A program made the position numbers and the translations under genes. From IMG/VR virus record IMGVR_UViG_3300025066_000007: DNA of 64,000 nucleotides; one strand, written 5' to 3'. A model generated the notes under the pieces. It was given only the letters and a program-made list of their open reading frames with translations. It searched no databases and had not been told where the DNA came from. This document shows, in pieces, positions 30,862 to 56,579 of the stretch (within the stretch, counting starts at the first letter, position 1; each line of letters starts with the position of its first letter). This DNA is from a virus (lineage: Duplodnaviria > Caudoviricetes).

Positions 30862-32847
30862 TTACAGGACAAACGGAAACGTGTAGACCAGATCCGTCTT
30901 ATCTAATCTCTTTAAGGCCAAGCGCTGCCTTGTATAATGTCTGAAAAACAGCTTATCTTTAGTTGTATTTAAAACTTCATAAACAAATTCAACGTCATTG
31001 TTAAAGTCAAATCTAACTACAAGATCTCGATCTTTTATAGCCGGACTAGGAAGAGTCCAGCAGCTGGGCTCATACATTTGCTCCAGATGACTTTGAGCTC
31101 CAAGCTTCAGGTCTTCTTGGGTATCTCCGAATTGAATCATGACTCGACCATCCGACCTTCTTCTATAGTCATATTGCTGATAGCCTCCATCATATCCCGT
31201 ACCATAACAAAGCTTGCACCCCTTAACCTTAGGGTGCATTCTTCTGGGGTCTGAACAGCTGCATGTTTCTCCGTCCCAAATTCTTTTTAGAAGAATTGTT
31301 GGTTCGCCAACTTGATCAAGCAGAACCTCTTCTCTATTCAGCATTCTGTCGAATAAATTCATTCCTCTAAATCCGTTAAATTCTCCTCCTAAATAACTTC
31401 CACAATCATTCGTTCCTTGCAAAATCTGTTGAGGTATAGCCTTGTGATATCCGCAGAAGTCAAATCCTTGGAAAAACTTTCTGTCATTATCAGAATAATC
31501 AGTTACAACAAGGCCTGTTCCGTTAATTTCACGTCCACTAGAATATCCATCGACGTAGGTTGGCGTTCCCATGACTATTGAGGTATTCTTATCTTGGCAT
31601 GCAAAAAACATTTTTACAGAATCACCTTCAATGAAAATCCCCTTGCTTGTGCCGTTTAGCCCTCTGCCGTTCGTCGGGAGAAGAAAAGAGGTGTCGGTCT
31701 TGCCGGTATATCTTATAACTTCAGAGTCGTCTAATATTAAAATTCCAGCGGATGGATATCCCTCTGTGGAACTTACATTAATAATCGTATCGCTAGACAA
31801 AACCTGAGAGGCGATCGTGATATCTGCGGGAATCTCATAAACTCCTGCAGATTTCTCTGTCATTCCGCTTAACTGGAGATTTCCGCTAAAAGCCTCAAGA
31901 GCTCTTACTGCGTAAGAAAGGGTTAGCCCTGGGGTCAGGCCAGATACGTCGTAATGAGTTACGGTGTCGTCGGCAATATATTTAGGAGTAGAGTCAAAGA
32001 TATCTAGTCTAGATTCGTCTTCATATATTAGAGCAAAAGAGTCACCCTTATAAGACCTTGAAACAGTTTTATTCCAGCTTACACGCAACATGTCTCCTCT
32101 GCCCATATTCGTAAGCTTTTTAATGCCTTGGGCATAGCCAAGAAATTTTACCTGAGGAAAAACTGAGGGAAGAACAACCGCAGGGAGATCTACAGAATAA
32201 GAAAAGCTACCACTTAATACATTCCCGCTTAAGTCTGCTGCATCATACTTTACGGTATACGCTCCATTGCGAAAAGGTTCCGTAGGCTCTATCCTTGCTG
32301 ATGCTCTATCTTCTGTCTTTGTTATAACAGAGGAATTGCCTGCGTATAGCGTCTGAAAAACTCCTCCCAATACGGCAGGAGAGTTATTGATATATATATT
32401 TATAGAATCTTCATCGATATCATCGATTTCATCTTTGAACTGCAGAAAAAGCACCTGATCTGATTGAACAAGGTCTCCAGAAGTCGGAGAGCTTATTTCA
32501 AGTTCTGGCTCAGACGGAATTGTCTTAAAAGCATATTCGAAATTATAAAATTTATCTTCTAAATTCTGGATTTGAACTTTTACAAAAACAACCTGTCCTT
32601 CGCCAAAGTCATTTATAGAATCTATAACAAGATGTGCTCCAGATGCATCACTGGTTATCTCGGAAAAGATTCCATCAAAGGGGTCCGTGAAATCTAGGCC
32701 TTGAAAGGCCCTACTCCCGCTTATTTCAACAACCAATGATGATAGATTTAGTCCGGTTCCATCATCTAAAATGCTAAACTCAATCAAAGAGTTTAAAGAG
32801 ATGGAGTTGTCGCCTTCATTGGGCGATTTTCCAGATAAAGTTAACAT
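30862..32847 (-). CDS. Head-closure/neck protein fused to Ig-like and FN3-like domains
   Basis: N-terminal Ig-like repeats ('SPNEGDNSISLNSLIEF', 'SPTSGDLVQSDQVLFLQF') and an FN3-like segment ('LRVSW...VSGLTPGLTLSYAVRA'). The C-terminus has 'LLKRIWDGETCSCSD...CKLCYGTGYDGGY...IKDRDLVVR', a head-stopper-like pattern. Confidence 0.55.
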   Translation of the reverse strand: MLTLSGKSPNEGDNSISLNSLIEFSILDDGTGLNLSSLVVEISGSRAFQGLDFTDPFDGIFSEITSDASGAHLVIDSINDFGEGQVVFVKVQIQNLEDKFYNFEYAFKTIPSEPELEISSPTSGDLVQSDQVLFLQFKDEIDDIDEDSINIYINNSPAVLGGVFQTLYAGNSSVITKTEDRASARIEPTEPFRNGAYTVKYDAADLSGNVLSGSFSYSVDLPAVVLPSVFPQVKFLGYAQGIKKLTNMGRGDMLRVSWNKTVSRSYKGDSFALIYEDESRLDIFDSTPKYIADDTVTHYDVSGLTPGLTLSYAVRALEAFSGNLQLSGMTEKSAGVYEIPADITIASQVLSSDTIINVSSTEGYPSAGILILDDSEVIRYTGKTDTSFLLPTNGRGLNGTSKGIFIEGDSVKMFFACQDKNTSIVMGTPTYVDGYSSGREINGTGLVVTDYSDNDRKFFQGFDFCGYHKAIPQQILQGTNDCGSYLGGEFNGFRGMNLFDRMLNREEVLLDQVGEPTILLKRIWDGETCSCSDPRRMHPKVKGCKLCYGTGYDGGYQQYDYRRRSDGRVMIQFGDTQEDLKLGAQSHLEQMYEPSCWTLPSPAIKDRDLVVRFDFNNDVEFVYEVLNTTKDKLFFRHYTRQRLALKRLDKTDLVYTFPFVL

Positions 32848-32890
32848 AAGTGCCTCTTAGATATCGAGGCCTATTAGTAGAGGAGTTCTG

Positions 32891-33412
32891 TTAAACAGCC
32901 TCTTCTAAAAGTTCCTCGCGCTTGTCTTTTTTATCCTCGCCAGGAACATTATGGTGGTCAAGAAGGTCATCAACATATTCTTCTGCATCTTCTTTTCCAA
33001 GCTCTTTTGAGTGATATTTTATTTGCTTTTGAAATGCAGCTACTTCATCTGGTTCATCAAGATAATTATGTGCTTCGTCGCTTTTAGGCTTACCAAAATC
33101 TTTTATGTGCTGGATCGCATGAACTAACTCATGAATAACATATCTCATTCTAATCTCTGGAGGCTTATCTAGAAGCTTTGTGCTCAAGCTAATGCTCCCA
33201 TCTGTAGTTTTTGCAGCAACCTCTAAGTCCTCAAAGAGAATCGGAACAGAAACAAGAAGCCATTCGTCTACGCCTTCTTCTCTGCAAATTTCTTTAGCAA
33301 CTTCATCATTCATCATGGTGGTCCTGATGTCTGCTAGAAGCCTCATCTGCTTCATCAGCTTATTTTCTGATTTCTTTTTTGCAAAAATAGTAAACATGTT
33401 ATTCTTTCTCAA
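32891..33412 (-). CDS. HExxH zinc-metallopeptidase-like protein
   Basis: 'YVIHELVHAIQH...YLDEPDEVAAF'. Confidence 0.6.
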   Translation of the reverse strand: MRKNNMFTIFAKKKSENKLMKQMRLLADIRTTMMNDEVAKEICREEGVDEWLLVSVPILFEDLEVAAKTTDGSISLSTKLLDKPPEIRMRYVIHELVHAIQHIKDFGKPKSDEAHNYLDEPDEVAAFQKQIKYHSKELGKEDAEEYVDDLLDHHNVPGEDKKDKREELLEEAV

Positions 33413-33608
33413 AGAACTCCTGCAAACTTTCTGACTCAGTATCTATGGCCAAGCGAGCAAGAAAAGAGGTTTGTTTGAGTGCTGAGATCCGTTCTTCAGC
33501 TCTCTTTATCAGGTTCTCAAGGCCCAATATTTCGAAGTCAATTTCAACAGGGCTCGTTGGCCTAGAGAATCCGCAATACTTTATTTCGCAATTTTCTGGT
33601 TCACGCAT
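33399..33608 (-). CDS. Hypothetical protein
   Basis: 69 aa with SD GGAGG, overlapping the next gene. Confidence 0.6.
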   Translation of the reverse strand: MREPENCEIKYCGFSRPTSPVEIDFEILGLENLIKRAEERISALKQTSFLARLAIDTESESLQEFFEKE

Positions 33609-33694
33609 TATGCCTCCCTGAAAGAAATATTACTCAATATTTGTAGGCCTATTTTTATATATTAATATTAATAGCATATCGTAGGTACCGTCTA

Positions 33695-34372
33695 ATGCTA
33701 AAAATTTCTAAAAATATAGAAACGCCAGAAGAGCTATATCACTGGCTCAGCAAAAACAGAGAAGGTTTGATTAGAAGCATAAAAAATAAATATTTCTCTG
33801 CTAGAGCAGGTCATTATAGTCCAATATATATTAGGGATAAGATCAAACTCACTCGACCATATGACAAAAAAGAGGTTGAGGTCCAAGTAAATGTTGTGTC
33901 AAAAGAAACTTTTATCGCAAAAGGATGGGACGAAAACTACTATGCATATGCGGATACCAGCTCAAACACAATTTGGCTAAATACAGACATCTTATTTAAA
34001 TATACAAAGTCGGAACGAGGATGGAAATTCATTCAGCATGCCATGGTTCATGAGATAACACATATTATTGATCCAAAGCTATATGACCCAGACCTCGACC
34101 AAAGGGATGATCTCCCATATTTCAAGCGCCCTTATGAATTTGATGCCTATTCTGCTGGCTTCTCTGACATTATGCGAAACAAATATGAGCCTGAATATAT
34201 CTTAAAAATGCTCAAAGATACAGAGGTGTGGAATAAGCATCCAAATAAGCCTAAAGCCCTCAAAGAGTGGTCGCCAAAGCAATTAAGGCTTTTTAAGATT
34301 AGACTATATCATGATGTAATAAAAGATATGGAGGAGGAGAGAGAGGATCTGGAGGGCCTAGAGTCCCTTTGA
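33695..34372 (+). CDS. HExxH zinc-metallopeptidase-like protein, the only convincing plus-strand gene
   Basis: 225 aa with 'AMVHEITHIIDP...KRPYEFDAY'. It fills a gap in minus-strand coding and is divergent from 33399..33608. Confidence 0.7.
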   Translation: MLKISKNIETPEELYHWLSKNREGLIRSIKNKYFSARAGHYSPIYIRDKIKLTRPYDKKEVEVQVNVVSKETFIAKGWDENYYAYADTSSNTIWLNTDILFKYTKSERGWKFIQHAMVHEITHIIDPKLYDPDLDQRDDLPYFKRPYEFDAYSAGFSDIMRNKYEPEYILKMLKDTEVWNKHPNKPKALKEWSPKQLRLFKIRLYHDVIKDMEEEREDLEGLESL

Positions 34373-35665
34373 ATGATATAACTTCGATATTGCCAAAGAC
34401 TCTTTCTTTAATCCATTAGACAAGGCCCAGCTCTCCAAAGTCTTGAGCTTTTCGGACAGTCCGCTTTTTGCTTTATTTAGGAAGGCCGGAGCAACTCCTA
34501 ATTCATCATATAAGTCTTTTCTTTTGAATCTATCACTCGGAAAGATTCCTCCCAAAAAGTCCTCAAAAACAAGCTCTGATGGATTTTCTTTGTCAGAAAA
34601 ATTTAATTTATTTTCAATATATTTCTGATTTTCTCTTAAGCTTTTTTCTATGAGCTTAGCGTCTGCTTCCGAAAGAAAGATCGCGCCATTTGTGTAATAA
34701 ATTTCATCGTTTATCTTTACTATAAAATATTCATCGAACAAACTATCCACTGGAATCTTTAAGATATCAGGCTTAAGATCTTTCAGATCATACTTGAGCT
34801 TTAATAGCTTAGATTTAGGAGAGCCTCGGTCTTCATAGTTAACTCCCAGATCTTCAATCAGGTCTATAATATATTTGTGATAGTCCGCCTTTGCAGGAGA
34901 GCTCCCAGCTCCTTCAATGCTGGAAATTCTCTTTTCATTTGGATGATATGTCGCGACTATATGTGGGTTCTGGTTCTTGTCGAGCAGAATTAGCATCGTT
35001 CTGTCTTCGTCTATGCCCATAGCGCCAACTGAGCCACAGTTTTTCATTTTTTGGCCAAGAATATCACACTTCTTTCCAGAGTCAATCCAGCGATAACCAT
35101 TTACATATTGCTTAATGGTCGGCATCTCTAAAGAGATTTTTTTATCTGCATAAATCTCTGCAGCTTCTTTGTAAGAAAGCTTCTTATATTGATTTAAATT
35201 ATTTACTTCTCCAGATACGATATCTCTAATCAAATCTCTATCAAAGAAAATGTCTTTCAAGAAGATCTCTTTGATTTCTTTCTTTATAAGTGGAATGTGC
35301 TCCTCTAGGTCTATCCTTCTTGTTTCTTGCGAATAGGGATCATAACTTTCGATTCCACTATAGCCATTCTCCTTAGACCACTTATCATATGCGTCTTCTC
35401 CCTTGAGAGCGGCATCTAGCATCTGCAGTAAATTAGCAAGCAACCCTTCTCCCCTGAGTCTTCCAACGTTTCTAATCCAGTCCATCGGGATCTTATTTAC
35501 TCCCCACAAATGATATTCATTCATCCATTTTGCAATTATAAATGCATTTTTTCCAAATCTTTCAATAAATACTTTCGCAATAACCTCTGGATATCCGAGG
35601 TTTACAATTTGCTGAGCAGAAGCCGCAAACTTATTAAGCGCTAATAGCTTATTGAAACGATTCAT
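34358..35665 (-). CDS. Hypothetical protein with C-terminal shared tag
   Basis: 435 aa. It contains 'CDILGQKMKNCG' and ends 'KLKTLESWALSNGLKKESLAISKL'. Confidence 0.8.
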   Translation of the reverse strand: MNRFNKLLALNKFAASAQQIVNLGYPEVIAKVFIERFGKNAFIIAKWMNEYHLWGVNKIPMDWIRNVGRLRGEGLLANLLQMLDAALKGEDAYDKWSKENGYSGIESYDPYSQETRRIDLEEHIPLIKKEIKEIFLKDIFFDRDLIRDIVSGEVNNLNQYKKLSYKEAAEIYADKKISLEMPTIKQYVNGYRWIDSGKKCDILGQKMKNCGSVGAMGIDEDRTMLILLDKNQNPHIVATYHPNEKRISSIEGAGSSPAKADYHKYIIDLIEDLGVNYEDRGSPKSKLLKLKYDLKDLKPDILKIPVDSLFDEYFIVKINDEIYYTNGAIFLSEADAKLIEKSLRENQKYIENKLNFSDKENPSELVFEDFLGGIFPSDRFKRKDLYDELGVAPAFLNKAKSGLSEKLKTLESWALSNGLKKESLAISKLYHSKGL

Positions 35666-36450
35666 TCTAGAATATCCCCATATCCCTTAAGCCATTCTCT
35701 CCCACTTTCTATGTCCTGCACTTGATTGTCAGAGATCTTTAACCAAATATATTTTTCACCAGCATTTATCGCAGCAAAAGCTCTATGATTTCCGTCTCTA
35801 ATTTGGAATATAAACTCACCAAAGTCTCCGGATCTATTCTCTTCCGCCTCTGTTAACTGAAGCTCCATATCTTTCTTGAGCTCATCATATGATTCTTCAA
35901 CAATGTTGTAATTATCATCATAATCAGAGTTATTACTCAACCACTCTTTTTTATCCGCAAGGTACTGGTCAAGCTCTTCATCGCCAGTTGTAAGCGGAGC
36001 ATGGCCATAATCTTCTTGATATTTTATTGACTCTTCAATTTCGGAAACCCCAACCTTTGACATCTCGCCATAGGGAGCGTAAAGGATTACTTTTTCTGGA
36101 GATGAATTAATCTTATCAGTTAATTGAGAAATCTTTTCGTCATAGAAGACATTCCCTTGGATCGGATAAACGTAATGGGAGTCCGCTCTTACCATTTTGC
36201 CGGTAGTGCCTATCCAGATTACATTGCGTCCATGATAAAGGTTGTCCTCTTCTTTTTCTCTGGAGACTAATTCATCTTCTAGATCTGGGTAAAATTCGTC
36301 ATAAGATTCTGCGCCATAACTCGGCTGCTCCCATAGGGGGCCTTCATTGCGCGGCATAGAATATTTGAAAACTTGCCTTGCCTCTTTCCTCAGGCCGCTA
36401 GAAGCTAGCCAACCTGACAATGCGACAAGCTTCTTTAATCTTCTGTTCAT
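35662..36450 (-). CDS. ParB/Srx-like domain protein with N-terminal shared tag
   Basis: C-terminal 'FQIRDGNHRAFAA' is the DGxHR motif of the ParB/sulfiredoxin fold. The N-terminus reads 'KLVALSGWLASSGLRKEARQV'. Confidence 0.6.
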   Translation of the reverse strand: MNRRLKKLVALSGWLASSGLRKEARQVFKYSMPRNEGPLWEQPSYGAESYDEFYPDLEDELVSREKEEDNLYHGRNVIWIGTTGKMVRADSHYVYPIQGNVFYDEKISQLTDKINSSPEKVILYAPYGEMSKVGVSEIEESIKYQEDYGHAPLTTGDEELDQYLADKKEWLSNNSDYDDNYNIVEESYDELKKDMELQLTEAEENRSGDFGEFIFQIRDGNHRAFAAINAGEKYIWLKISDNQVQDIESGREWLKGYGDILE

Positions 36451-36621
36451 TACAAAAGATTATGGAAAATTAGTAGCTACAGGGGAATGTTAACGCTATT
36501 AAGGCGCTGAACTATGGACAGCGTACAGGGCAAGAATATTACAGGAGATATCAACGCACATTTAACGTAGGCATCTAGTGATTTACTAGTAATTGGGGGA
36601 TTTAATGTTCGCTCCAGAATA

Positions 36622-38208
36622 TTAACAGAGTAATGCGGACAGCTCTTTTGCCTCTTTTCTGAAGCCGTTGGTGCGGAGCCACGCTTCAAGAGGTTGGAGT
36701 TTGTTTTCTTCGGGAGCTTTGTTCTTTGGGTTAAGATGTGCGTATTCAGGAATATTATGTAGGCCGTAATAAAAGAACTCTTCAGGATCTTTCTCTGCCC
36801 AATACTTTGCGGTAGGTATTCCAAACTCTACGTATTCACGAAGCTTATGTAGGCCATAAGAAAAGAAGCGTTTAGGCTTTTTCTCTACCAAATTCTTTGC
36901 GGCAGGTATTCCAAACTCTGCGTATTCAGGAATCTCATGTAGGTCGTAATGAAAGAAGCATATAGGATCTTTCTCTGCGCAATTCTTTGCGGCAGGTATT
37001 TTAAACTCTGCGTATTCAGGAGTCTTGTGCAGGCCATAACCAAAGAACTCTTCAGGACTTTTCTCTGCCAAATTCTTTGCGGCAACCTTTTTCGTATCCG
37101 CTCTTGCCGCATTATTTTGCGTAAATTGCAGCAAAATGCTTGCTATCTGAGAATCATCATTGATTGCTGCAATCTGGAGTTCCAATTCCTCCGGAGTTGT
37201 TTCTGCTATTATTTTATTGAATTTCGTATCTTCTCTTCTGCCTATATCCGCATAGATAGCCGAAATTATCGAATCCGCTTCGGATCCCAAATATTCTTGA
37301 ATTTGGTTCAAGCTTAAATCACGATTATCTGTATTGACTGTAGCATTTTGATTCGTTAAAAGCTGCGGCTTTCCATCTCTTTTGGTAAATCCAATAGATA
37401 TTTTTCTCATCGGATTTGATTTCTCAAAAAATTCCGAATCTTGCTTTGTTATTACGTAATAAAGGTAAATATTTTTTGAAGCATAATTTGCAAACTTATT
37501 TCCTTTAAGATAAGAAGTACACCAAGTGGTTCCCCTGGCCCAATACTGAGAGGATTGAGTGGTTCCACTCAAAACTGTGATGAAGTCATCCGATTGATAA
37601 ATGTAATCCGTATATTTCGGATCCAGAGCGTGTTTTTCTATTTTTGAATAATAATATTCTTTATTTGAAGCAAGTTTTTCATCAAAATAGCTTCTTAATT
37701 CGGAGAGAAGATTAAAGGATTCCAATGGCTTCTCAAGCTGCTCCGGATTTCTTTGGTAAAATAAAACGCTTTTTATGATTTCTTCTATCGGATCCGCTTC
37801 TTCATTAAAAAGCATCTTGAAAATCCAGGGATAATATCTCGGATTAACTTCAGACTTCTTTAATGTCTCCAATCCCTTGACATGCTCCGGATCTTTTAGC
37901 TGTGGATGAGTTGCATTTGCCTTGTCAATTTCCAAGTCCTTCGGACTCTTCGATACACCTCCGCTGCGAATTGCAGCAATGATCTCTTCCTTTGGCTTGC
38001 CTTTGAATTGATTTATGCTTTGAAGATATTCCTCATTGGATCCGAAGTTGCTTCGAAATGCTGAATAATATTGATCCGAAAAAGAAAACATCATATTTGC
38101 ATTTTCGACAGGAAATAATTCAGAGAACTTATCTCTGCTTTCTTGCTTTTCAACGCTTACTGCCGCTTCCTTGAGTAAATCCTTAATTCTACTTGCTCTT
38201 GATAACAT
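36622..38208 (-). CDS. Hypothetical phage protein (GTxWCT motif) with four C-terminal 30-aa repeats and shared tag
   Basis: 528 aa with 'SQYWARGTTWCTS'. Repeats span 36730-37083. It ends 'KLQPLEAWLRTNGFRKEAKELSALLC'. Confidence 0.75.
   Translation of the reverse strand: MLSRASRIKDLLKEAAVSVEKQESRDKFSELFPVENANMMFSFSDQYYSAFRSNFGSNEEYLQSINQFKGKPKEEIIAAIRSGGVSKSPKDLEIDKANATHPQLKDPEHVKGLETLKKSEVNPRYYPWIFKMLFNEEADPIEEIIKSVLFYQRNPEQLEKPLESFNLLSELRSYFDEKLASNKEYYYSKIEKHALDPKYTDYIYQSDDFITVLSGTTQSSQYWARGTTWCTSYLKGNKFANYASKNIYLYYVITKQDSEFFEKSNPMRKISIGFTKRDGKPQLLTNQNATVNTDNRDLSLNQIQEYLGSEADSIISAIYADIGRREDTKFNKIIAETTPEELELQIAAINDDSQIASILLQFTQNNAARADTKKVAAKNLAEKSPEEFFGYGLHKTPEYAEFKIPAAKNCAEKDPICFFHYDLHEIPEYAEFGIPAAKNLVEKKPKRFFSYGLHKLREYVEFGIPTAKYWAEKDPEEFFYYGLHNIPEYAHLNPKNKAPEENKLQPLEAWLRTNGFRKEAKELSALLC
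36730..37083 (-). repeat. Four tandem 90-bp (30-aa) coding repeats
   Basis: Units start at 37083, 36993, 36903 and 36813. Consensus AAKNxAEKxPxxFFxYGLHxxPEYAEFGIP; the last unit is truncated. Confidence 0.92.
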
Positions 38209-38223
38209 ATTAATTCCTGTTAT

Positions 38224-38364: not shown

Positions 38365-38462
38365 GTTTTTTTAGATAAAAGCGTCTTGAATCTTTCGGCT
38401 TTTGAGCCGGTTGATTCTTTGATCCTTATATTAGTAGAGAAAAGCAAGTGCAGCGGCTACTA

Positions 38463-39371
38463 TTAAATGATACGCCTACTACGAAGATGCTTTAGGCGTT
38501 GTGCAGCGGGCACTCCGCTGCTCATATTGGAGTATGTTCCGTATCCAGTGGGGCCTGGACGAATAGAGTTTTTAATAAACTTAAGCCTCTCTCGATAAGA
38601 GGTCATAAAGTTCTGGTAATGAGTTGCCAGAAAGTCTCCCAGGGCAGGGGGCTGGTAGGAAATCCCTCCATCACTGATTGTAAAGTCTCGACCCTTCTCG
38701 ACCAAAGCCTGAGAGGATAGCGCCAAAATTAAGGCACCTTCAACTATCGCATGAGAGAAGGTTTTGTAGATAATTTGCTCCCCAAAGCTGAACGACGTAA
38801 AGAACGGAACCATATTGAATTCAGATAGAGAAGAGGATAGGAAGCAGGCGAGGATTTCGTCTGTGAAAACATTGCAATCCTCCATTACCATTTCTCCATA
38901 CCCATCTAAGATAAAGGCTCCATATTGATCTCTTGAAGGCTTCTGCCCATCTGATTGGAGTCTAGCCTTCAGTAGCTTAAGAAGTATATTTAATCCGGTA
39001 AGCTCTGCCTGAGTGAAATCAAAGTCTACTTCATCGCCAAGTCTCGCAGCGCCTGCAACTGCAGATGCTTCGTCTGTTACTAGAAATTTAAATTCATTAG
39101 AAAGGGTGACTCCATCTACTACGCCTGTCCACGTATCTGTCCAGAGACCTTTTTCGATAGAAGCGCCTACTGCATATGAATAGGTATAGAGGCCAACCGC
39201 CTCTCTGACAACTCCAGTTGATGTAGAGGCAACTACAATTGCTCCGTCTGGATCCGTTAGCTCAATCTGTGGAATGCTGCCAGCGTCAGCTTCCAAGCCA
39301 TCTGGGCCATAGTACTGAATACTTAGTTCTAGGGTTTCACCTCGTATGGCTTTGTTTCTATTATTGGGCAT
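38463..39371 (-). CDS. Putative head-tail adaptor (neck) protein with N-terminal Ig-like domain
   Basis: 302 aa. Ig-like N-terminus ('VREAVGLYTYSY...GLWTDTW'), then 'VFTDEILACFLSSSLSEFNMVP...IVEGALILALSSQALVE'. Confidence 0.55.
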   Translation of the reverse strand: MPNNRNKAIRGETLELSIQYYGPDGLEADAGSIPQIELTDPDGAIVVASTSTGVVREAVGLYTYSYAVGASIEKGLWTDTWTGVVDGVTLSNEFKFLVTDEASAVAGAARLGDEVDFDFTQAELTGLNILLKLLKARLQSDGQKPSRDQYGAFILDGYGEMVMEDCNVFTDEILACFLSSSLSEFNMVPFFTSFSFGEQIIYKTFSHAIVEGALILALSSQALVEKGRDFTISDGGISYQPPALGDFLATHYQNFMTSYRERLKFIKNSIRPGPTGYGTYSNMSSGVPAAQRLKHLRSRRII

Positions 39372-44231: not shown

Positions 44232-45239
44232 TTACACAGTACCAGTTGCAACGCCTCGGGGGTTAACAATACCGACTCCGATTATTTCATTCACGACCCA
44301 ACCTAATTTCAGCTGCTTCGGCTCATCAGCAGGTAGTACCTCGATGTCCTGACGGACAGGCATTACGCCGACGAACTCAGGATCCGCACAAGCGAATGCA
44401 CGGCCTGAAGGAACAACCTTGGACACAATGATGTCAGCGCCAAAGACGTGGCCGTAAAGACCGGTCTGTAGCAACTCACGCTGGGTGACGGGGTCAACCT
44501 GTGAGTTTGTGTTACCAGCAGATTCCCAGGTGAGAATGTCGGTGAACTCATTGATGTTTAGGAAGTACTTGGAGGTTACCAAGTCCCAGCGGTCAATCTG
44601 GCGCTTGAGGTTGATGAGACCGTCTTTCTCAAGTGAAGTACCAGCGGGGGATAGGTCTACAGCCGCGTTCTCACCACCCTGAGTAGAGTCACCAGCGAAC
44701 TCAAGCGCGGAGAATACGTTAGCATCCTCGTGAGCCTGAATTTCCTGACGAGCCTTCTGCTGGGCACGATCGATCACGTTGAACCGACGACGCTTGACTT
44801 CCGCGATGCGAACGGTCGGGTTTGAGACAACCTCAAACTCGGGAACGTTTACGCGGTCACCGAATACGCGTGACTCAGGAGCTGCACCGTTGCTGGAAAC
44901 AACAACAGCCGCTACATCGATATCACGGTCGTAAACCGGAAGAGCACCCTGGGGAAGCGGATCGACTACGAGAGCCTTACGCGCCACACCCTGATAGTCA
45001 AGGTTGCGACGAATCGGGTTCGCCATCGCTTGACCTAGAGCAATCTTGCCTTCTTGCGTCATTAGAGCCTGCTTGATCATCTCATCTCTCTGACCATCAT
45101 TTAGGCTAGGCGCTGCGGCCTGAGCGTTACTTGACGGCTGAAGATCTTCGATGATTGAAGCATACTTGACGATCTGTGATAGAGCCTCTTGTACGTTAGA
45201 GGCATTGATCTCACCATGTGTGTTAAATAGATTTGTCAT
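44232..45239 (-). CDS. Major capsid protein (HK97 fold)
   Basis: 335 aa with strong SD (AGGAG), GC-richer codon usage and a strong terminator. It shows the capsid-like pattern 'PIRRNLDY...FNVIDRAQQKARQEIQAHEDANVFSAL...G.VFGADIIVSKVVP'. It lies downstream of the protease/scaffold and decoration genes. Confidence 0.88.
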   Translation of the reverse strand: MTNLFNTHGEINASNVQEALSQIVKYASIIEDLQPSSNAQAAAPSLNDGQRDEMIKQALMTQEGKIALGQAMANPIRRNLDYQGVARKALVVDPLPQGALPVYDRDIDVAAVVVSSNGAAPESRVFGDRVNVPEFEVVSNPTVRIAEVKRRRFNVIDRAQQKARQEIQAHEDANVFSALEFAGDSTQGGENAAVDLSPAGTSLEKDGLINLKRQIDRWDLVTSKYFLNINEFTDILTWESAGNTNSQVDPVTQRELLQTGLYGHVFGADIIVSKVVPSGRAFACADPEFVGVMPVRQDIEVLPADEPKQLKLGWVVNEIIGVGIVNPRGVATGTV

Positions 45240-45952: not shown

Positions 45953-48067
45953 TTATTTGCTTCCCTTCTTCTCTAACATATTACGTACCCAAGCGTAATT
46001 AGATCTATAATTTCCAGTGGGGGCGCTCATTGCGACACCTTCACTTTGTTCTTTTTGCTCTAATCCGTTTTCTACGAGTCCTCCGTTGCCAATAGAATCT
46101 AAGATTACTACCGACTTTGGATGAGCAGAATTAACCAGTTCAGAACCAGAACCATCTGTTATGTTATAAAGAGAACCAAAATCTGTTTTGGGATTTTCCG
46201 ATTTTTCATCATACAGTCTACCTAGACCTGTAAAATACTCTCGGACTTCTTTGTCATTATTATTGAGATCCTTAACGGCATCTTTACAATAAGACTTTGA
46301 TGTTTCATCTGCTTCTTTAAACAGTGTTACATCAGTATTTTGATGATTATTAGTAGAATTAGAATTATTTGAAGATACTTTCTTAAAAGTATTTAATTTT
46401 TGAAGTCTATCTGAATCACTTGATGTTCTCAGGAACCTTTCTGGCCGCCTATCTTTCTGTTGTGCCGGAGATAGCCCTTCGCCCCTTCTTCCTAGAAATT
46501 TTCTTTTAGGGAATGCCCTAAATGGTCTGCCCATTATATACTTTCTGGCCCTAGTGTTGCCGAGTGACGTGGCGTAAAATCCATACTGGTAAATTACCTG
46601 AACAGATTTGTTTAATGCACTTTGGGGATTGGATACTTTGCTGCGTTCGTAATTATAAACCATCATTCCCGGCCCACTTGTAAAAGACCTTAAGATCGTC
46701 AAGGTCTCCGGGTGTGTAGGTAGAAGTACCCGCTCGCCTGGACTCTTCAGCCTTCCTGAGTCAAAAAATGCGAAGCTAAGTCCATCTATGGGCTCGGGAA
46801 AAATCATAAGATTACTAAATCTTGATCCTTGTAGTGCTTTGGCTAAAGCCGATGTATCTCCGGTTTCTAGATAGCGTTTTATAGCGTCTTCAGTAGTCGC
46901 TGAAGCTCCGCCGATATCTCCACGAGCTCCTGATGCTCCTGGCGCTCCGCCAACTGAGCCTGTATCGTCATCTCTCATTAGATATTTGGCGCCCATAACT
47001 CCGGCTCCTACAAGTCCTGCAAATCCTAGGATCTTTAGGAGAGATACTGCCCAACCGGCCTTCCTAATTCTGCTTAAAAGGGGTGACTTCTGAGACTTCT
47101 TTTCAAGAGCTTTGATCGACGCGATTGTATCTTCTTTTGCCCGCTGAATAGTCTTCAGGGGATCTTTCGCGGGATCCATTAACGCTTTGTTTCCAGTCTT
47201 CTTAGAAGCATCGGCAAGTGCCTTCTCCATCTCGGCTAGCTTCTTAGCTGCCATTTCGACAGATTCCTCAGAGGCCTTATACATTCTCTCTGCAGTTTCT
47301 CTAAGAATATTTTCTGCAGCTTTAGCTCCATCTTTCGGCAGATCCTTAGGGGCAGTCAACATTAGGCTATCAAGTTCATCAACTTTCTGAGTTAGAACAG
47401 TGTCTATCCTAGCTCTGCTTCCGGCAATAGCATTAGTTAGTTCTTTAAGCTGTGTAGGGTCAGCCTTTCCTTCTGCTCTTAGGCCATTCGTGACAGTGCT
47501 TGCGTACTCCCATATGTTAGTATGCTCATCAAGAATGGCGTCTATTGTGGGACCGGTCTCTTTTCCTGTTGCTCTCAGGACTCTTTTGGCAAAAGGAAAC
47601 TCTTCGGCTAGACTCTCCAGAGTTTGGCGACCCATAGGAGCACTAGGTGCAGAGCGGACTGCAACAGAAGAAGGCGACTGAACCGCAGGAAGATTTTTGG
47701 AACGTCTGTAATCAACGACCAAATCTGCTTTACTTTTTCTTGTTAGTGCGCTAAGATCTCCTCCCTCTTCCATCAGATGGTAGATCAAAGCTTTTATCTC
47801 TTCATTTCCACTTCTATATTGAGAGCCGAGAAGAGTATTGTTTCCATCTTCAAAGGCTTGCAAAATAGCCTTCACTTCTACTTCTGGGCCAATTTGCTTA
47901 AGAACCTTTGCGCCTGGGCCCGTAAGGCCCTTTATTTTTGTAAGCTTGGATCCTCCGGCCATCAACTCATCAAGGCTAGAGAATAATCCCGCCTTCTTAT
48001 TGAAGCGGTCCATCGTTTCAAAGAAAGAGTCAAGAGATGAAGTGTCAGATACTTTGTTTATTTGCAT
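45953..48067 (-). CDS. Putative internal head / DNA-ejection protein with central hydrophobic segment
   Basis: 704 aa, helical. Hydrophobic 'WAVSLLKILGFAGLVGAGVMGAKYLM' is followed by a Gly-rich linker. Several K-x-[A/S] motifs. Confidence 0.45.
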   Translation of the reverse strand: MQINKVSDTSSLDSFFETMDRFNKKAGLFSSLDELMAGGSKLTKIKGLTGPGAKVLKQIGPEVEVKAILQAFEDGNNTLLGSQYRSGNEEIKALIYHLMEEGGDLSALTRKSKADLVVDYRRSKNLPAVQSPSSVAVRSAPSAPMGRQTLESLAEEFPFAKRVLRATGKETGPTIDAILDEHTNIWEYASTVTNGLRAEGKADPTQLKELTNAIAGSRARIDTVLTQKVDELDSLMLTAPKDLPKDGAKAAENILRETAERMYKASEESVEMAAKKLAEMEKALADASKKTGNKALMDPAKDPLKTIQRAKEDTIASIKALEKKSQKSPLLSRIRKAGWAVSLLKILGFAGLVGAGVMGAKYLMRDDDTGSVGGAPGASGARGDIGGASATTEDAIKRYLETGDTSALAKALQGSRFSNLMIFPEPIDGLSFAFFDSGRLKSPGERVLLPTHPETLTILRSFTSGPGMMVYNYERSKVSNPQSALNKSVQVIYQYGFYATSLGNTRARKYIMGRPFRAFPKRKFLGRRGEGLSPAQQKDRRPERFLRTSSDSDRLQKLNTFKKVSSNNSNSTNNHQNTDVTLFKEADETSKSYCKDAVKDLNNNDKEVREYFTGLGRLYDEKSENPKTDFGSLYNITDGSGSELVNSAHPKSVVILDSIGNGGLVENGLEQKEQSEGVAMSAPTGNYRSNYAWVRNMLEKKGSK

Positions 48068-48456
48068 ATTATTTCTCGTTCTGAAATCTCATCGATAGTT
48101 CGCTCTATCTTGTAGGCTAGCTTGATATCGTTTTTGTTTATAGCTTCTTGCGCCAATAAGCGTAGCTCTTCCAAAACCTCTTCAGTTACATCATCGTCTT
48201 CTTCTTCAGCCTCAGGATCATCTGCGAGATTTGCAGCTGCCTCATCAACCTTTGCCAGGGAGTCTGCAGCACCTTTTGCCGCCTCGTTTATAGCTTTAAG
48301 GCTTTGCTCCGTTTGCTCTTCTGCGATTTTTCTATTTAAAATTTCAGCACGCTTTACTGTATCAATAACTCGTGTTTCTAGCTCTTTAAATACTTCGCTA
48401 TCATTAAAATTTGCGAGGTCTTCCTTGCTCCAAAGGTTTTTCATATCTTGCTCCAA
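48058..48456 (-). CDS. Acidic helical head-associated protein
   Basis: 132 aa. The C-terminus 'LRLLAQEAINKNDIKLAYKI' is a weak match to the shared tag. Confidence 0.65.
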   Translation of the reverse strand: MEQDMKNLWSKEDLANFNDSEVFKELETRVIDTVKRAEILNRKIAEEQTEQSLKAINEAAKGAADSLAKVDEAAANLADDPEAEEEDDDVTEEVLEELRLLAQEAINKNDIKLAYKIERTIDEISEREIICK

Positions 48457-49260: not shown

Positions 49261-49773
49261 TTAAGCAATTTTACTCATAGTAGAAAGAACCATGTCCGCA
49301 GCAAACTGATCCCCAGAATCGCTTAACTCTTTTGCCATTTTGCTCAAAGAGTCAGTTATCTCGGTCTTTTTCGCTGCTTCTTTTTTGAAGTCTCCAATTA
49401 TGCTCTTTGCAGTAGCCTCTACTACATCCGCAGCAAAAGACTCTCCCTTATTACTTAGATCTTTAGAAATCTTCTTGAGACCATCGATAATATGTTTTGC
49501 TCTTGCAGTCAGAACTAAGCCTTCACTTGCGTAAGAGTCTAGTCCTGAAACATCAATTAAATCGGAAGCATAATGCTCCCTCTCTTCTTCGGAGTCCAAA
49601 ATTAGGTCTTCTAGCTCAGAATCTGAAACAACATTTTCAGCTTCCGCAGGAGCCTCCTCCAAGGAAGCCGTCTTAACAACGGCTTCCTTGGCTGGAGTGC
49701 GCGGTGCGGCGCCCTTCAATAGCCCTGCAAATTCCTGAGCAATATTATCTCCATTCTTTTTTAGGCTATACAT
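49261..49773 (-). CDS. Head-associated protein with two copies of the shared helical tag
   Basis: 'LKKISKDLSNKGESFAADVV' and 'LSKMAKELSDSGDQFAADMV'. Confidence 0.7.
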   Translation of the reverse strand: MYSLKKNGDNIAQEFAGLLKGAAPRTPAKEAVVKTASLEEAPAEAENVVSDSELEDLILDSEEEREHYASDLIDVSGLDSYASEGLVLTARAKHIIDGLKKISKDLSNKGESFAADVVEATAKSIIGDFKKEAAKKTEITDSLSKMAKELSDSGDQFAADMVLSTMSKIA

Positions 49774-49782
49774 GACTTCTCC

Positions 49783-52700
49783 TTACTCGTCCCAGAGTGA
49801 AGATAGGGAATCGGCAGACATAGGCCCCGGCACGCTTGCAGTGTTATCTTCAGTTTTAACGCCAATATTTAGGCCGCCGAGATCAGATGCAATCTTAACT
49901 GTCCCAACTGAGCGTGCGCTTGCAATGCTCCTCTTAAACGCCTCAAAGGCATTGTTGTCGAAAGACATGATCTCATCTACCTGTCGGTCCAAAGAAGCCT
50001 TAGATGACGGCAACAGACCCTTGGTTTGCATTTCTAGACCAACATCATACGCTCTACGAAGCTTGATTCGATATTCTTCCCTAGCTTCATTTGCACGCTT
50101 CTCTTCCATCTTACTCGCAAGCGCAGCCTTTAGTGCTCCACTCTTATCGGAAGCCTCAACTTCTAGATCATCCTCAGCTTCGTTAACAACCGCATCAGCA
50201 GCTTCGTTAACAACCGCATCGTCAGCTTCGTTAACAACCGCATCAGCAGCTTCGTTAACAACCGCATCGTCAGCGCAGGATTCTGCTCCCATTTCGTCAG
50301 AGTCTTCGTCCATTGCTTTCTTATTTAGCTTGTCGGCTGCGAATCTACTTTCCGCTTGCTTTAGGATGGCTTCCCGGCGATCCCTTCTTAGCTGCATAGC
50401 CGCAGTAACCAGCTCTTCTGTGCCATCATCCGCGAGGTCTTCCATTGGTTCTTCCGCTGCTGGATCATCCATAAGGTCATCAGCAAGATTAACAGTTGAA
50501 TCCACAGCCATATCCTCTGTCGGAGCGAAATCTTCTGCCATATCCATTGCAAGTCGAACAATTGCCTTCGCCTCACCGGTCGCCCTATCAGCGTCCTTAA
50601 TCGCATCACTTGCAAGCTTTCTAAACTCAATTTTCTGAGCAGAGGATAGCTTGCTAATATTATCAAAGGTTTCTGCCACCATAGAGAGCTCATCTGCAGA
50701 TCCATCAAGACGCTCGAAGGCCGTCTTCAGATTGGTAAGCATCTTAGATGATAGTGCTGTCATTTCTGCATCAGCACCCTCTGCAGCAGCGCCTTCTTCT
50801 CCGGTAAAGACATTGACGTCTACATCTGCAGTCCTTCCATCCTCAAGCTCGCTAACAAGATCTCTGACCTCATCGATTAGCTGCTCCATTTCAGCCAGCC
50901 TATTGTCGACTGCAGTTCCGGGCTCTTCCGGCTCTTCGTCCATCGGCATTTCAGCGTCTAGCTCCATCGGCATTTCGTCTTCCATCGGCATTTCTGCTTC
51001 CATCGGCATTTCTGCTTCCATTGGAGGCATAGCAGCCTCCTCCGGTGCAGCAGGCAACTCCTGAGCAGTCTTAAGCAAGCTGGTAACATGAGTTAATCCA
51101 GCAATGCGAATTTGAGAACAAACCTCGCGACCGTAATCACGGCTCTTTAGCCACTCCCAGTTATCCTCTAGGCTGGGCCCAAAGATCTCTTGGCCAGTAG
51201 CCGCGATCACCCTCTTGTCTCCAGCAAAAACCTCTAGGAGACTCGCCTTCTTGTCTACGGCTCCATTGAGAGCTCTTTTCACAGAGAATCTTGTGCTTAG
51301 CCCGGGGCCATTGTAAGCTGCTCGGCTCATCTTCTCTTTGACCTCCTTGTCGCCAGGGAACATGCCGGAATCTCCACCCATGCTTCCTGTCTGTAGCATG
51401 TGCTTGTCATCGCCATAAGTTTGCGGCTCACTCTTGTAGGTGTTGGGCTCAGCGCCTTCGGATCCGCCTTGCATGTAAGCCAAACGCTTTAGCTTACGCT
51501 CTTGGAGTTGAGCTCGACTCAGCTTCTCCTTTGTCTCCTTGTCGCCAGGGAACATGCCGGAATCTCCGCCCATGCTTCCTGTCTGTAGCATTTGCTTATC
51601 TTTGCTCTGCGCATCGGTAGGCTCACTCTTAAATGTGTTAGGCTCCGCACCCTCTGAGCCGCCCTGCATGTAAGCAATTCTACGGCGTAGCTCAGCTCTC
51701 TTCCTCAATCTTGACTCGTTCATAATATCCTCCACTATTGAATTAATTGAAAAGTCGTTAACAAAATCGCTGCTATCACCATTATTGGCAGTTTTAACGT
51801 GTTGATCTTGCTTACTGCTAATTACCGAAACAGCGGGCTCTCCACTGGCCGGAAAACTTAAAATATCATCCTCATCACCAGCGAAGTCAGGCTGGTCCCC
51901 TGTATCTCCGCCGCCAAGAAGTCCTATTCTAGATGTTGCAGCGCTTTGCTCTGCAACATCGCCTGGACCTCTTCCGTCTGAGTTTTCATAAGATGAAAAC
52001 TCCTCTCTGTTTGTGCCAGAGAGATCTGGTCGGAATTTCTCTTCCAGCTCCCCCATAAGCATCTTGATGACTCTCTTGACATCATCATTGACATTTGGAT
52101 CTCCCAAAAGACTAGCCGCATCGGGCATTGTCTTTAGGGTTTCTGCTATGTTTCTTGCCTCTTCTGATTCGTCAGTAAATGAAGTCTTTAAAAGACCATT
52201 ATTTTCTAGAAAACTTCTTACAATACGGTCTCTATCATCTACGGAGCAGCTATTATCTCCGCAGGCAGTTTTCATTATGCCATCCAAATGTTCCGCTTGC
52301 TTAAGGCTAAGCCTTCCTAACATTTCAGAAACATTGTCTACACCATAATTTGTAAATTCTTTTTTGTATTCCTGCAAGGAGGCTATACACTTTAGAAGGA
52401 CTGCTCCAGGCTCTGCAGGCTGAACCACTAGGCTGTACTCAATTGGCTTGAGCCCAACATTGACCTCTCCATGAGCAGCCCTGCTTGAGATGCACTTGCA
52501 GTATTCATTTTGATTTGTTGCTTTGTTTTGGCAATCTGAGCAGATAGAGGTTTCTACTGCTGTACCCATTGATCCGTATCGAACCATTCCGGTTTCAACC
52601 TTCCTGGCAAGGTCTGGATAGTTGACCTTATCAAGGGCGCAGAGTCCAACGACCTGCTTAAACTTCTCATCGTAATGGGTATCTAGAATGATTCCTCGTA

Positions 52701-55693: not shown

Positions 55694-56020
55694 CTATAAT
55701 CTGGAAGATAATTCACTTAAAACGATATTTATGAAATAAGGATCCTTACTATTCAACACATTCTTAATAAGACCCAAGCTGACGCCGATAGAAGCTCCGC
55801 CTGGACTCTTCTTGTTGGAAAGTTCCATTCTATTAAATTCAGAAATTTTATTTTTAATATTGTGAAAAGACTTTCCTCTAGACTCTGGGGCCATGCCGCT
55901 AATCATTATCTTAATGATGTTATGAAGTTGCTCTGCAACATATACCGCATTCTGTTCTAGCATTTGCGCTTCCTTAATAAGCTCGGGGTCGCTCAACTGT
56001 CTTGCGCTATACTCAAACAT
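55694..56020 (-). CDS. Hypothetical head-region protein
   Basis: 108 aa, overlapping the upstream gene. Confidence 0.7.
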   Translation of the reverse strand: MFEYSARQLSDPELIKEAQMLEQNAVYVAEQLHNIIKIMISGMAPESRGKSFHNIKNKISEFNRMELSNKKSPGGASIGVSLGLIKNVLNSKDPYFINIVLSELSSRL

Positions 56021-56579
56021 GACCTACCACCATCTGTGCGACTACATGATATGCGGCATTATGAGCTTCTGATTCGGACCCTCCATCTTCCACAGACTCT
56101 ATTAACAAAGAGTTATATTCTTTTACAATCGACTTTATAAGAGATTGTTTTCCCATAATGTCAGAATTATTGATTTTTATAAGCAGATCTTTCAGAAGAA
56201 CTTGGTAGTCTAAATTTTTTTGTTGTGCTATTTTCTGAATTAAAAAATCTGCAAAGTTAGAATACCTGTATTCCTCCTGCTTGTCCATTCCATCAGAAAG
56301 ATCTATTAGAAGAGCTAGGAGCTTATCATACTCTAAGTCATGTGTTTTTCGTTTTTTCTTTGGAAATTCTTCACGATCTTCGGCCTCTGAATGAGTTGCA
56401 GGCATTACTGACTCTCCTGGCATGACCAAGCCTCTTCCTACTCCATTTCCAGCATCTCCAGAGAGCCCTTCTTCGCCAGACGCTTGCCCTGGCAAATTTA
56501 AATTGAATTCGGTATTCAATCTTTCCAATCGCTTATTTCTATAAGATTTTTTATCCATTTTATTTTTTAACTTTGCCAA
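56013..56579 (-). CDS. Hypothetical head-region protein
   Basis: 188 aa with a weak tag match 'LIDLSDGMDKQEEYRYSNFA'. Confidence 0.7.
   Translation of the reverse strand: MAKLKNKMDKKSYRNKRLERLNTEFNLNLPGQASGEEGLSGDAGNGVGRGLVMPGESVMPATHSEAEDREEFPKKKRKTHDLEYDKLLALLIDLSDGMDKQEEYRYSNFADFLIQKIAQQKNLDYQVLLKDLLIKINNSDIMGKQSLIKSIVKEYNSLLIESVEDGGSESEAHNAAYHVVAQMVVGHV

What the first reader, a model, noticed from the sequence alone, without database searches (positions are those of the whole stretch)
34381..36712. A portable ~20-aa tag on unrelated proteins: candidate capsid-targeting signal for cargo loading
Seen: three adjacent, otherwise dissimilar proteins carry the same short motif at one end. 34358..35665 has it at the C-terminus (KLKTLESWALSNGLKKESLAI), 35662..36450 at the N-terminus (KLVALSGWLASSGLRKEARQV) and 36622..38208 at the C-terminus (KLQPLEAWLRTNGFRKEAKEL). 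The same register, L-x2-[LIM]-x3-[LMA]-x3-G-x4-[AS]-x2-hydrophobic, recurs in head-cluster proteins. 49261..49773 has two copies (LKKISKDLSNKGESFAADVV, LSKMAKELSDSGDQFAADMV); 48058..48456 and 56013..56579 match more weakly. Established: T4 internal proteins use a short N-terminal capsid-targeting sequence, and encapsulin cargoes use short terminal targeting peptides. Inference: this is an orientation-independent helical-hairpin zip code that lets new enzymes (ParB-like, repeat protein and others) be recruited into the prohead and delivered to the host.
Basis: partly seen in the sequence, partly recalled or inferred. Interest (0 to 1): 0.8.

Follow-up and report, generated by a model that had tools for sequence, protein, structure and literature searches.

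The report
Portable two-helix tag on megaphage proteins
Three neighbouring, unrelated accessory proteins of an uncultured marine giant phage carry the same undescribed 28-30-residue two-helix end-piece, which is reused on many other proteins across this phage clade. It is most likely a docking label, possibly for loading proteins into the virus head, but that destination is not shown.

Summary
The core observation is real. Three adjacent minus-strand genes share one ~28-residue motif (K-L-x2-L-x2-W-L-x3-G-[FL]-x-K-E-A-x2-[IL]): a PcfJ-like 435-aa protein, a ParB/Srx-like 262-aa protein and a 528-aa repeat protein. The motif sits at the C-, N- and C-terminus respectively, and nothing else in the three proteins aligns, even profile against profile.

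The motif is a predicted helix-turn-helix joined to its host protein by a disordered linker. In homologues it moves between ends, becomes internal, or is absent. A second, acidic flavour (L-A-N-x-L-D-x2-G-x3-E-A-D-x-L-D) belongs to the same family. That flavour heads arrays of small genes in about 36 related IMG/VR contigs.

Ten proteins of this 211-kb genome carry the tag.

Capsid targeting is unproven. In its favour:
- The trio sits in a variable cassette slot inside the structural operons.
- It lies behind a promoter-like motif otherwise found at structural genes.
- N-terminal copies end in hydrophobic-x-K-x-A.

Against it, tags also sit on a nucleotidase, a methyltransferase and a ferritin-like protein, and no virion data exist.

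This scan has already noted similar portable hairpin tags on this genome and on other huge-phage genomes. I found no Pfam or PHROG family and no paper for it.

The parts
34358..35665 (-). 435-aa accessory protein (PcfJ-like lead; core weakly GNAT/MYST-like) with an N-terminal short leader and a C-terminal tag
   Evidence: ORF. ESM Atlas look-alikes carry PF14284 PcfJ, score 0.92, a lead only. AF2 model pLDDT 79. Foldseek gives weak acetyltransferase-like matches, E 0.1.
34376..34453 (-). C-terminal hairpin tag of the 435-aa protein (residues about 405-430)
   Evidence: External-profile score 19.1 bits against a decoy maximum of 4.3. AF2 predicts helix 396-416, a turn, then helix 420-431, at low confidence and after a low-confidence linker.
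35624..35665 (-). 14-residue N-terminal short leader ending L-N-K-F-A (hydrophobic-x-K-x-A)
   Evidence: The same kind of leader starts five adjacent genes in locus L001.
35662..36450 (-). 262-aa ParB/Srx-like protein (D-G-N-H-R motif) with the N-terminal tag
   Evidence: ORF. AF2 pLDDT 84.6. Foldseek gives weak ParB/Noc/sulfiredoxin matches, E 0.4, not significant. 30 homologues, with or without the tag.
36358..36435 (-). N-terminal hairpin tag (residues about 6-31), followed by V-F-K-Y-S then M-P-R and a disordered linker
   Evidence: AF2 predicts helix 3-17, turn 18-20, helix 21-30, then residues 31-58 with pLDDT about 50. External-profile score 26.0 bits.
36469..36476 (-). Promoter-like motif CTACTAAT, 26 nt upstream of the ParB-like gene
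   Evidence: Sequence read. The motif class is enriched in upstream gaps of the structural half of the genome.
36622..38208 (-). 528-aa protein with four ~28-aa LRV-type repeats, an N-terminal short leader and the C-terminal tag
   Evidence: ORF. Homologues carry PF01816 LRV. phrog_17056, unknown function.
36625..36705 (-). C-terminal hairpin tag of the 528-aa protein (residues about 502-528)
   Evidence: External-profile score 32.5 bits. Conserved in homologues P0002-P0005 and P0009; in P0006, P0008 and P0012 the tag is at the N-terminus.
38164..38208 (-). 15-residue N-terminal short leader ending L-L-K-E-A
38430..38437 (-). Promoter-like motif CTACTAAT in the 254-nt gap upstream of the 528-aa gene (229 nt from the ATG)
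   Evidence: Sequence read.
38463..39371 (-). Conserved 302-aa structural (neck-region) gene forming the upstream border of the variable slot
   Evidence: 40-77% identical homologues in 9 of 12 related contigs; synteny.
30862..33608 (-). Conserved block (69-aa ORF, SprT-like 173-aa zincin, 661-aa structural protein) forming the downstream border of the slot
   Evidence: synteny.

Best explanation
The motif is an autonomous, portable mini-domain of 28-30 residues. It consists of an amphipathic helix, a Gly/Asn turn and a second helix, tied by a flexible linker to otherwise unrelated accessory proteins. It is specific to one clade of uncultured marine 0.2-0.4 Mb phages whose capsid protein resembles that of Bacillus phage G. 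It most likely acts as a docking (address) tag that brings many interchangeable proteins to one common partner. The most likely partner is the assembling prohead (scaffold or core), so that tagged proteins made late are packed into the head and reach the next host with the DNA. N-terminal copies would be clipped off after their closing hydrophobic-x-K-x-A/S by the head protease, as happens with the T4 capsid-targeting sequence. Shown here: the module, its portability, its predicted fold and linker, its restriction to this clade, the clustering of tagged genes, and the promoter-like motif shared with structural genes. Inferred: the partner, packaging, cleavage and delivery.
For: 1. The module is real and portable. 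2. AF2 predicts a hairpin on a disordered linker. 3. The W-type and acidic LD-type profiles align in register: hhalign probability 93%, E 3.4e-7, against E 0.69 for a reversed control. 4. A DNA pattern for the LD type (45 bits, about 0.01 matches expected by chance) hits 46 times in 36 IMG/VR contigs. Eleven of these contigs carry a capsid protein 68-94% identical to this one, and CheckV treats all as fragments of roughly 300-400 kb genomes. 5. In those loci 77 of 541 genes are tagged, 64 of them N-terminally, often in runs of 4-9 small genes with a conserved tag and variable bodies. This resembles the variable T4 internal-protein genes that share a CTS (PMC9026906). 6. Hydrophobic-x-[KR]-x-[AS] closes 14 of 23 N-terminal and 8 of 16 internal tags, against an 8% background. 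7. The motif [CT]TA[CT]TAAT lies in 12 of 24 upstream gaps in the structural half of the genome and in 3 of 61 elsewhere (Fisher 5.7e-6). Both transcription units of the trio have it. Two of the three sites elsewhere head tagged genes or operons. 8. The trio fills a cassette slot between conserved structural genes. That slot is empty in G017, holds one tagged gene in G012 and in L003, and holds other genes in G006 and G001. 9. Several tagged partners are cell-wall enzymes (LysM plus SleB-like hydrolase, lysozyme, PG_binding_1), a class often carried in virions.
Against: There is no virion proteome, and no cultured relative carries these genes. Phage G has no tag. The scaffold and head-cluster proteins do not carry the module, so no partner is identified. 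Tags also sit on an NT5C deoxyribonucleotidase, a SAM methyltransferase, a ferritin-like protein and a PilZ protein, which are not typical virion proteins. Some tagged genes (genome 181885, and 198651/199028) lack the structural-type promoter motif, and two of the motif-led genes have only weak tags. C-terminal tags are not preceded by a cleavage-like site. The function of the promoter motif and the K-x-A cleavage rule are themselves inferences. In contig G001 the homologous genes lie among metabolic genes.
Confidence: 0.4

Rival explanations
1. The hairpin is a docking tag, but its address is not the capsid. It binds a conserved phage or host hub in the infected cell, such as a multi-enzyme complex, a compartment, a chaperone or a protease adaptor, and so gathers or regulates many accessory proteins.
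For: The partner enzymes are very diverse, including nucleotide-metabolism and redox or iron proteins. Long arrays of small tagged genes lie far from the head genes. Tag-only miniproteins of 48-66 aa could act as competitors or regulators. Proteins with 2-3 tags, P0059, P0066 and L034:2640-3365, suggest binding by avidity. No head protein carries the tag.
Against: No hub has been identified. The structural-type promoter motif and the cassette slot inside the structural operons fit late, virion-linked expression better. The conserved K-x-A end of N-terminal tags is not explained.
Confidence: 0.3
2. The hairpins bind each other. Single TPR-like two-helix units from different proteins, perhaps capped by the short N-terminal leaders, stack into hetero-oligomers and hold neighbouring gene products together.
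For: Tagged genes are adjacent more often than chance allows (3 adjacent pairs, permutation p 0.0016). The tag has the spacing of one TPR unit, and a TPR_12 protein (P0068) was a weak hit. hhalign against its repeats gives probability 22-69% over the G-[FL]-x-K-E-A part. Proteins 1 and 3 have both a one-helix N-terminal leader and a C-terminal hairpin.
Against: The TPR similarity is weak, and Pfam TPR models do not hit the tags. AF2 does not pack the tag confidently against anything. Self-association was not tested because no multimer tool was available.
Confidence: 0.12
3. The shared ends are by-products of recombination or duplication at conserved gene ends (cassette shuffling) and have no function as a protein tag.
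For: Arrays of small genes with near-identical 5' ends. A variable cassette slot.
Against: The module is kept at the protein level at the N-terminus, the C-terminus and internally, in proteins whose DNA is not alignable. The strict W-type DNA pattern is found in only 2 other IMG/VR contigs, while protein profiles find many copies. Its conserved positions are those of a hairpin core.
Confidence: 0.05
4. It is a small SAP/HeH-like DNA-binding motif that tethers proteins to phage DNA.
For: It has a helix-turn-helix shape and an L-x2-L-x2-W-L-x3-G-L start, reminiscent of SAP/Ish1-type motifs (recalled from memory, not tested beyond Pfam). One partner is ParB-like.
Against: No SAP, HeH, LEM or Rho_N hit even at E 10. 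Mean net charge is only +1.8 for W-type tags and -1.3 for LD-type tags, down to -6. The loop is 3-4 residues shorter than in SAP.
Confidence: 0.04

Closest known systems
Capsid targeting sequence (CTS) of phage T4 internal proteins IPI-III and Alt
   Same: Both are short shared end-pieces on unrelated, poorly conserved accessory proteins. N-terminal copies end in a motif that could be a head-protease site. Related phages swap the protein bodies but keep the leader. In T4 the CTS targets proteins to the prohead core and is removed by gp21, and Alt is processed at both ends (PMC9026906).
   Different: The T4 CTS is 10-19 residues, strictly N-terminal and ends in L/I-x-E. This module is a 28-30-residue two-helix hairpin found at the N-terminus, the C-terminus or internally. 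It has no sequence similarity to the T4 CTS, its ending is K-x-A/S-type, and neither packaging nor cleavage has been shown.
Encapsulation peptides of bacterial microcompartment cargo enzymes
   Same: [quoted passage not shown]
   Different: Encapsulation peptides are single amphipathic helices of 15-20 residues with little sequence conservation. They bind BMC shell proteins in bacteria, not phage capsids.
[quoted passage not shown]
   Same: Both are terminal helix-turn-helix units of about 30 residues. The P22 domain binds the coat protein and is used to load foreign cargo into P22 capsids (bioRxiv 10.1101/2022.12.13.520362; PMC9962691).
   Different: The P22 domain is part of one dedicated scaffolding protein, is basic, and is not a tag spread over many proteins. 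No sequence relation was tested or seen, and the scaffold candidates here lack the module.
MuF/SPP1 gp7-type head-targeting domains fused to variable toxin or effector domains (recalled from memory, not checked here)
   Same: A conserved head-associated part is joined to interchangeable effector parts.
   Different: MuF is a large folded domain that binds the portal, not a 30-residue hairpin.

Membership tests
T4-type capsid targeting sequence | N-terminal propeptide of 10-19 residues | tested here: not met
   The tag is 28-30 residues and two of the three window copies are C-terminal. Family-wide, 64 of 81 copies are N-terminal.
T4-type capsid targeting sequence | Ends at a prohead-protease cleavage site and is removed | tested here: inconclusive
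   Hydrophobic-x-[KR]-x-[AS] closes 14 of 23 N-terminal tags against an 8% background. The specificity of this phage's protease is unknown and no cleavage data exist.
T4-type capsid targeting sequence | Directs the protein into the prohead core | not testable with these tools
   Needs virion proteomics or tag-reporter packaging assays.
BMC encapsulation peptide | [quoted passage not shown] | tested here: met
   AF2 shows the hairpin followed by a linker with pLDDT about 50 (residues 31-58) in protein 2, and low-confidence residues 397-405 at the N-terminal edge of the tag in protein 1. The tag occurs at both termini. This is a match of architecture only; here there are two helices.
BMC encapsulation peptide | Encoded with BMC shell proteins | not tested
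   None of the ORFs scanned hit a BMC shell family, but the whole genome was not scanned against Pfam. The context is a phage genome.
TPR repeat | 34-residue helix-turn-helix matching TPR profiles, normally in tandem arrays | tested here: inconclusive
   Pfam TPR models do not hit the tags. hhalign against the repeats of TPR protein P0068 gives probability 22-69% over 14-19 columns. Most tags are solitary.
SAP / HeH DNA-binding motif | Match to SAP/HeH/LEM/Rho_N profiles and a basic surface | tested here: not met
   No such Pfam hit at E up to 10. LD-type tags have a mean net charge of -1.3.
P22-type scaffold coat-binding helix-turn-helix | C-terminal helix-turn-helix of the scaffolding protein that binds coat protein | not tested
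   Only the predicted fold type is similar. The scaffold candidates of this phage (49261..49773 and 49783..53097) do not carry the module.

The most novel reading that the evidence does not exclude
A clade of marine megaphages uses one 30-residue helical-hairpin code, in W-type and acidic LD-type dialects, as a general protein-addressing system. The code would load dozens of interchangeable accessory enzymes into the head for injection into the next host: ParB-like, PcfJ-like, lysins, a methyltransferase, a nucleotidase, ferritin-like and PilZ proteins. N-terminal tags would be removed at K-x-A by the head protease. If so, this is a natural plug-and-play cargo system far larger than the T4 CTS.
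Probability: 0.3. Interest if true: 0.85.

Novelty: new variant of a known kind. Interest (0 to 1): 0.62.

Why it matters
If the tag is an address label, it gives a sequence rule for recognising which of the many unknown genes of uncultured giant phages work together. If the address is the capsid, the rule would also show which proteins are delivered into the host at infection, a class that is otherwise invisible without virion proteomics. It would also offer a compact natural tag that works at either terminus, with about 80 natural variants and natural linkers, for loading foreign proteins into large capsids. Even if the address is something else, a module present on about 4% of a genome's proteins, and on up to 14% of genes in some regions, with no Pfam or PHROG family, is a gap in phage annotation.

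Tried and rejected
- It found no IMG/VR relative of protein 1.
- tblastn of the three proteins and of the three-tag protein P0066 against GenBank phages gave nothing, so no cultured relative with a virion proteome exists.
- Phage G itself has no tag.
- Pfam scans of the bare tags gave only noise: WHIM1 and SAM_3 at E about 0.1.
- The SAP/HeH idea was rejected on profiles and charge.
- The TPR idea is kept only as a weak resemblance.
- The head-cluster copies were tested with four profiles and rejected.
- Long-range homology among the three proteins was tested by profile-profile comparison and rejected.
- Foldseek on both AF2 models gave no significant match.
- The sigma-70 and terminator scan of the locus was uninformative.
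- A literature search for tag strings found nothing.
- Two further own-genome candidates (genome 160525..161487 and 194860..195912) look like tags by eye. They did not pass the external profile and are counted only as possible.
Full report
**What the window is.** The window lies at 26264-90263 of a single 211,453-bp virus contig. It carries a major capsid protein (44232..45239, phrog_2522; 53% identical to gp27 of Bacillus phage G), a portal (57966..60188), a large terminase and tail-fibre-like genes. Nearly all genes are on the minus strand.

**The observation.**
- BLASTP between the pairs aligns only the tag, with E 4e-4, 0.01 and 6e-4.
- I built family alignments from database homologues (alignments A2-A4). 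Profile-profile comparison again aligns only the 19-24 tag columns. The three proteins are therefore not homologous over longer regions.
- The core pattern W-x4-G-hydrophobic-[KR]-[KR]-E occurs only in these three among 1027 ORFs of the genome.
- A profile built solely from tags of other genomes scores the trio at 32.5, 26.0 and 19.1 bits, against a maximum of 4.3 for 1536 reversed or shuffled decoys.

**Portability.**
- In the repeat-protein family the tag is C-terminal in the closest homologues. It is N-terminal in P0008 and P0012 and at both ends in P0006.
- In the ParB-like family it is N-terminal in many members. It is internal, between an extra N-domain and the ParB-like domain, in P0024, P0033 and P0037. 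In P0048 it is replaced by a short leader, and it is absent in about ten members.
- AlphaFold2 of the ParB-like protein (pLDDT 84.6) predicts helix 3-17, turn 18-20 and helix 21-30. A disordered stretch 31-58 follows, then a globular domain that weakly resembles ParB/Noc/sulfiredoxin.
- In the 435-aa protein the tag is helix 396-416, a turn, then helix 420-431, at low confidence and with low-confidence residues 397-405 at its N-terminal edge.
- The body of the 435-aa protein is PcfJ-like by a language-model look-up, and weakly acetyltransferase-like by fold. Both are leads only.

**A wider family.**
- A profile of eight tags searched against 1.84 billion representative proteins gave 22 hits at E of 0.001 or less. 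They include tag-only miniproteins of 48-66 aa and proteins with two or three internal copies (P0059). One of them, P0066, has three copies of the form K-L-x-K-L-A-N-x-L-D-x-K-G-F-x-K-E-A-D.
- That form bridges the trio's W-type and an acidic "LD-type". I then found the LD-type at the ends of other proteins of this genome.
- W-type and LD-type profiles (38 sequences each) align in the same register: hhalign probability 93%, E 3.4e-7, against E 0.69 for the reversed control.
- A degenerate DNA pattern for the LD-type carries 45 bits, so about 0.01 chance matches are expected. It matched 46 times in 40 loci from 36 IMG/VR contigs. Thirty-one copies start within the first 18 residues, and six are C-terminal in a conserved family of about 170 aa.
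- Eleven of these contigs contain a capsid protein 68-94% identical to the one here. CheckV completeness values imply all are pieces of roughly 300-400 kb genomes.
- Phage G has no tag and GenBank phages have no homologues of the three proteins.
- The module is therefore specific to one uncultured marine clade. Across the fetched loci, 77 of 541 genes are tagged, often in runs of 4-9 consecutive small genes with near-identical tags and unrelated bodies.

**Census in this genome.** Ten proteins pass profiles that are independent of this genome.
- The trio.
- Genome 181885..182055: 56 aa, essentially tag only.
- Genome 198651..199022 and 192447..194879: W-type, N-terminal.
- Genome 94757..95278: 173 aa, LD-type, C-terminal.
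- Genome 191855..192229 and 199028..199366: LD-type, N-terminal.
- Genome 155122..156459: LD-type, internal.

Tagged genes are adjacent more often than chance allows (permutation p 0.0016).

**The head-cluster claim.** They score 0.7 bits or less with the W-type, LD-type, combined and external profiles, which is within the decoy range. I therefore do not count them. This removes the proposed tag-to-scaffold link.

**What the tag is attached to.** Most partners have no known family. The recognisable ones are:
- ParB/Srx-like, PcfJ-like and LRV-repeat proteins (the trio);
- LysM plus SleB-like hydrolase, PG_binding_1 and phage lysozyme;
- PilZ;
- a SAM methyltransferase (L038:4903-5550);
- an NT5C-type deoxyribonucleotidase (L039:3052-3771);
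- DUF5661;
- a ferritin-like DUF5856 protein with two C-terminal tags (L034:2640-3365).

The nucleotidase, ferritin-like and DUF5661 assignments to particular loci were made by eye, because the family searches had run out.

**Evidence bearing on the address.**
1. N-terminal and internal tags end in hydrophobic-x-[KR]-x-[AS] far more often than background: 14 of 23 and 8 of 16, against 8%.
2. A shorter one-helix leader ending the same way opens proteins 1 and 3 here and five adjacent genes in L001.
3. The same ending is seen near the N-termini of the capsid protein and three head-module proteins. I did not verify cleavage.
4. The 8-mer [CT]TA[CT]TAAT, often just after a terminator-like hairpin, lies in 12 of 24 upstream gaps in the structural half of the genome and in only 3 of 61 elsewhere (Fisher 5.7e-6).
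5. Both transcription units of the trio have this 8-mer (36469..36476 and 38430..38437). Of the three sites elsewhere, one heads the operon 194860-192447-191855 and one heads gene 160525.
6. A different motif, C-C-C-T-G-C-A-C-T-A-T-A-T-C, marks many genes at 144-204 kb.
7. The trio occupies a slot between a conserved 302-aa structural gene and a conserved block (69-aa ORF, SprT-like protein, 661-aa protein). That slot is empty in G017. It holds only the tagged PcfJ-like gene in G012 and only a tagged ParB-like gene in L003. It holds unrelated untagged genes in G006 and G001.

Host-directed accessory enzymes expressed with structural genes make most sense if they travel in the virion, as T4 Alt and IPI do (PMC9026906). 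That last step is argument, not data.

**Against the capsid reading.**
- No proteome exists.
- No head protein carries the module.
- Several partners are ordinary metabolic enzymes.
- Some tagged genes lack the structural-type motif.
- In G001 the homologous genes lie among metabolic genes.
- C-terminal tags have no cleavage-like site before them.

**Verdict.** The finding is a real, undescribed, clade-wide portable hairpin module. "Docking tag" is well supported, at about 0.8. "Capsid-loading tag" is the leading but unproven address, at about 0.4. The rivals are a non-capsid hub, tag-tag oligomerisation, a recombination by-product and DNA binding. The closest known systems by logic are the T4 CTS, BMC encapsulation peptides (PMC4594438) and the P22 scaffold helix-turn-helix. 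The module meets the architectural definition of an encapsulation peptide but is a member of none of these families.

**Earlier notes of this scan.** The scan had already noted the tag on this genome, and similar portable hairpin tags on other huge-phage genomes. Those notes are not independent evidence. I found no Pfam or PHROG family covering the tag and no paper containing its sequence strings.

Noticed in passing
window 30862-39371, with loci L053-L059 and L003: The gap between the conserved 302-aa structural gene and the block of 69-aa ORF, SprT-like protein and 661-aa protein is a hypervariable cassette slot. In relatives it is empty, or holds one to three genes, tagged or untagged.
   Followed up: yes
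window 36469-36476 and 38430-38437, and 13 other sites in G000: The 8-mer [CT]TA[CT]TAAT is enriched upstream of structural-region genes, often directly after a terminator-like hairpin. It is a candidate late promoter element. A sigma-factor-like gene (L010:7427-7867) lies just upstream of one such site.
   Followed up: partly
G000:C1, 144000-204000 (outside the window), e.g. 147706, 153073, 158437, 166750, 181839, 203579: A second conserved upstream motif, T-G-C-C-C-T-G-C-A-C-T-A-T-A-T-C-T, precedes many genes of the non-structural half. It is probably another promoter class.
   Followed up: no
window 35624-35665 and 38164-38208; L001:1257-14528: A short one-helix N-terminal leader (M-N-R-F-x-K-L-x2-L-x-K-[IF]-A) opens proteins 1 and 3 here and five adjacent large genes in the 316-kb relative. 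It looks like a collapsed version of the hairpin tag.
   Followed up: partly
window 32891-33412 and 33695-34372: Two small HExxH (zincin, SprT/YgjP-like) proteins flank the island. The second is on the opposite strand and travels with the PcfJ-like gene in G012.
   Followed up: no
window 60191-63040: The large terminase gene (949 aa) contains a LAGLIDADG homing-endonuclease-like insert (residues about 289-474), suggesting an intein or an inserted endonuclease.
   Followed up: no
window 42580-44019: A 479-aa protein made of several endonuclease VII/HNH-type modules sits between the capsid gene and the tail genes.
   Followed up: no
window 53378-55654: A 758-aa head-module protein carries a DUF192 domain (E 2e-20).
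   Followed up: no
G000:C1:204300-205487 and 207898-211228 (outside the window): An EF-Tu-like GTPase gene, and a tandem array of at least seven MORN-repeat-like paralogues at the contig end.
   Followed up: no
L034:2640-3365: A ferritin-like (DUF5856-type) protein carries two tandem C-terminal hairpin tags. Ferritin-like proteins are classic encapsulin cargo.
   Followed up: no
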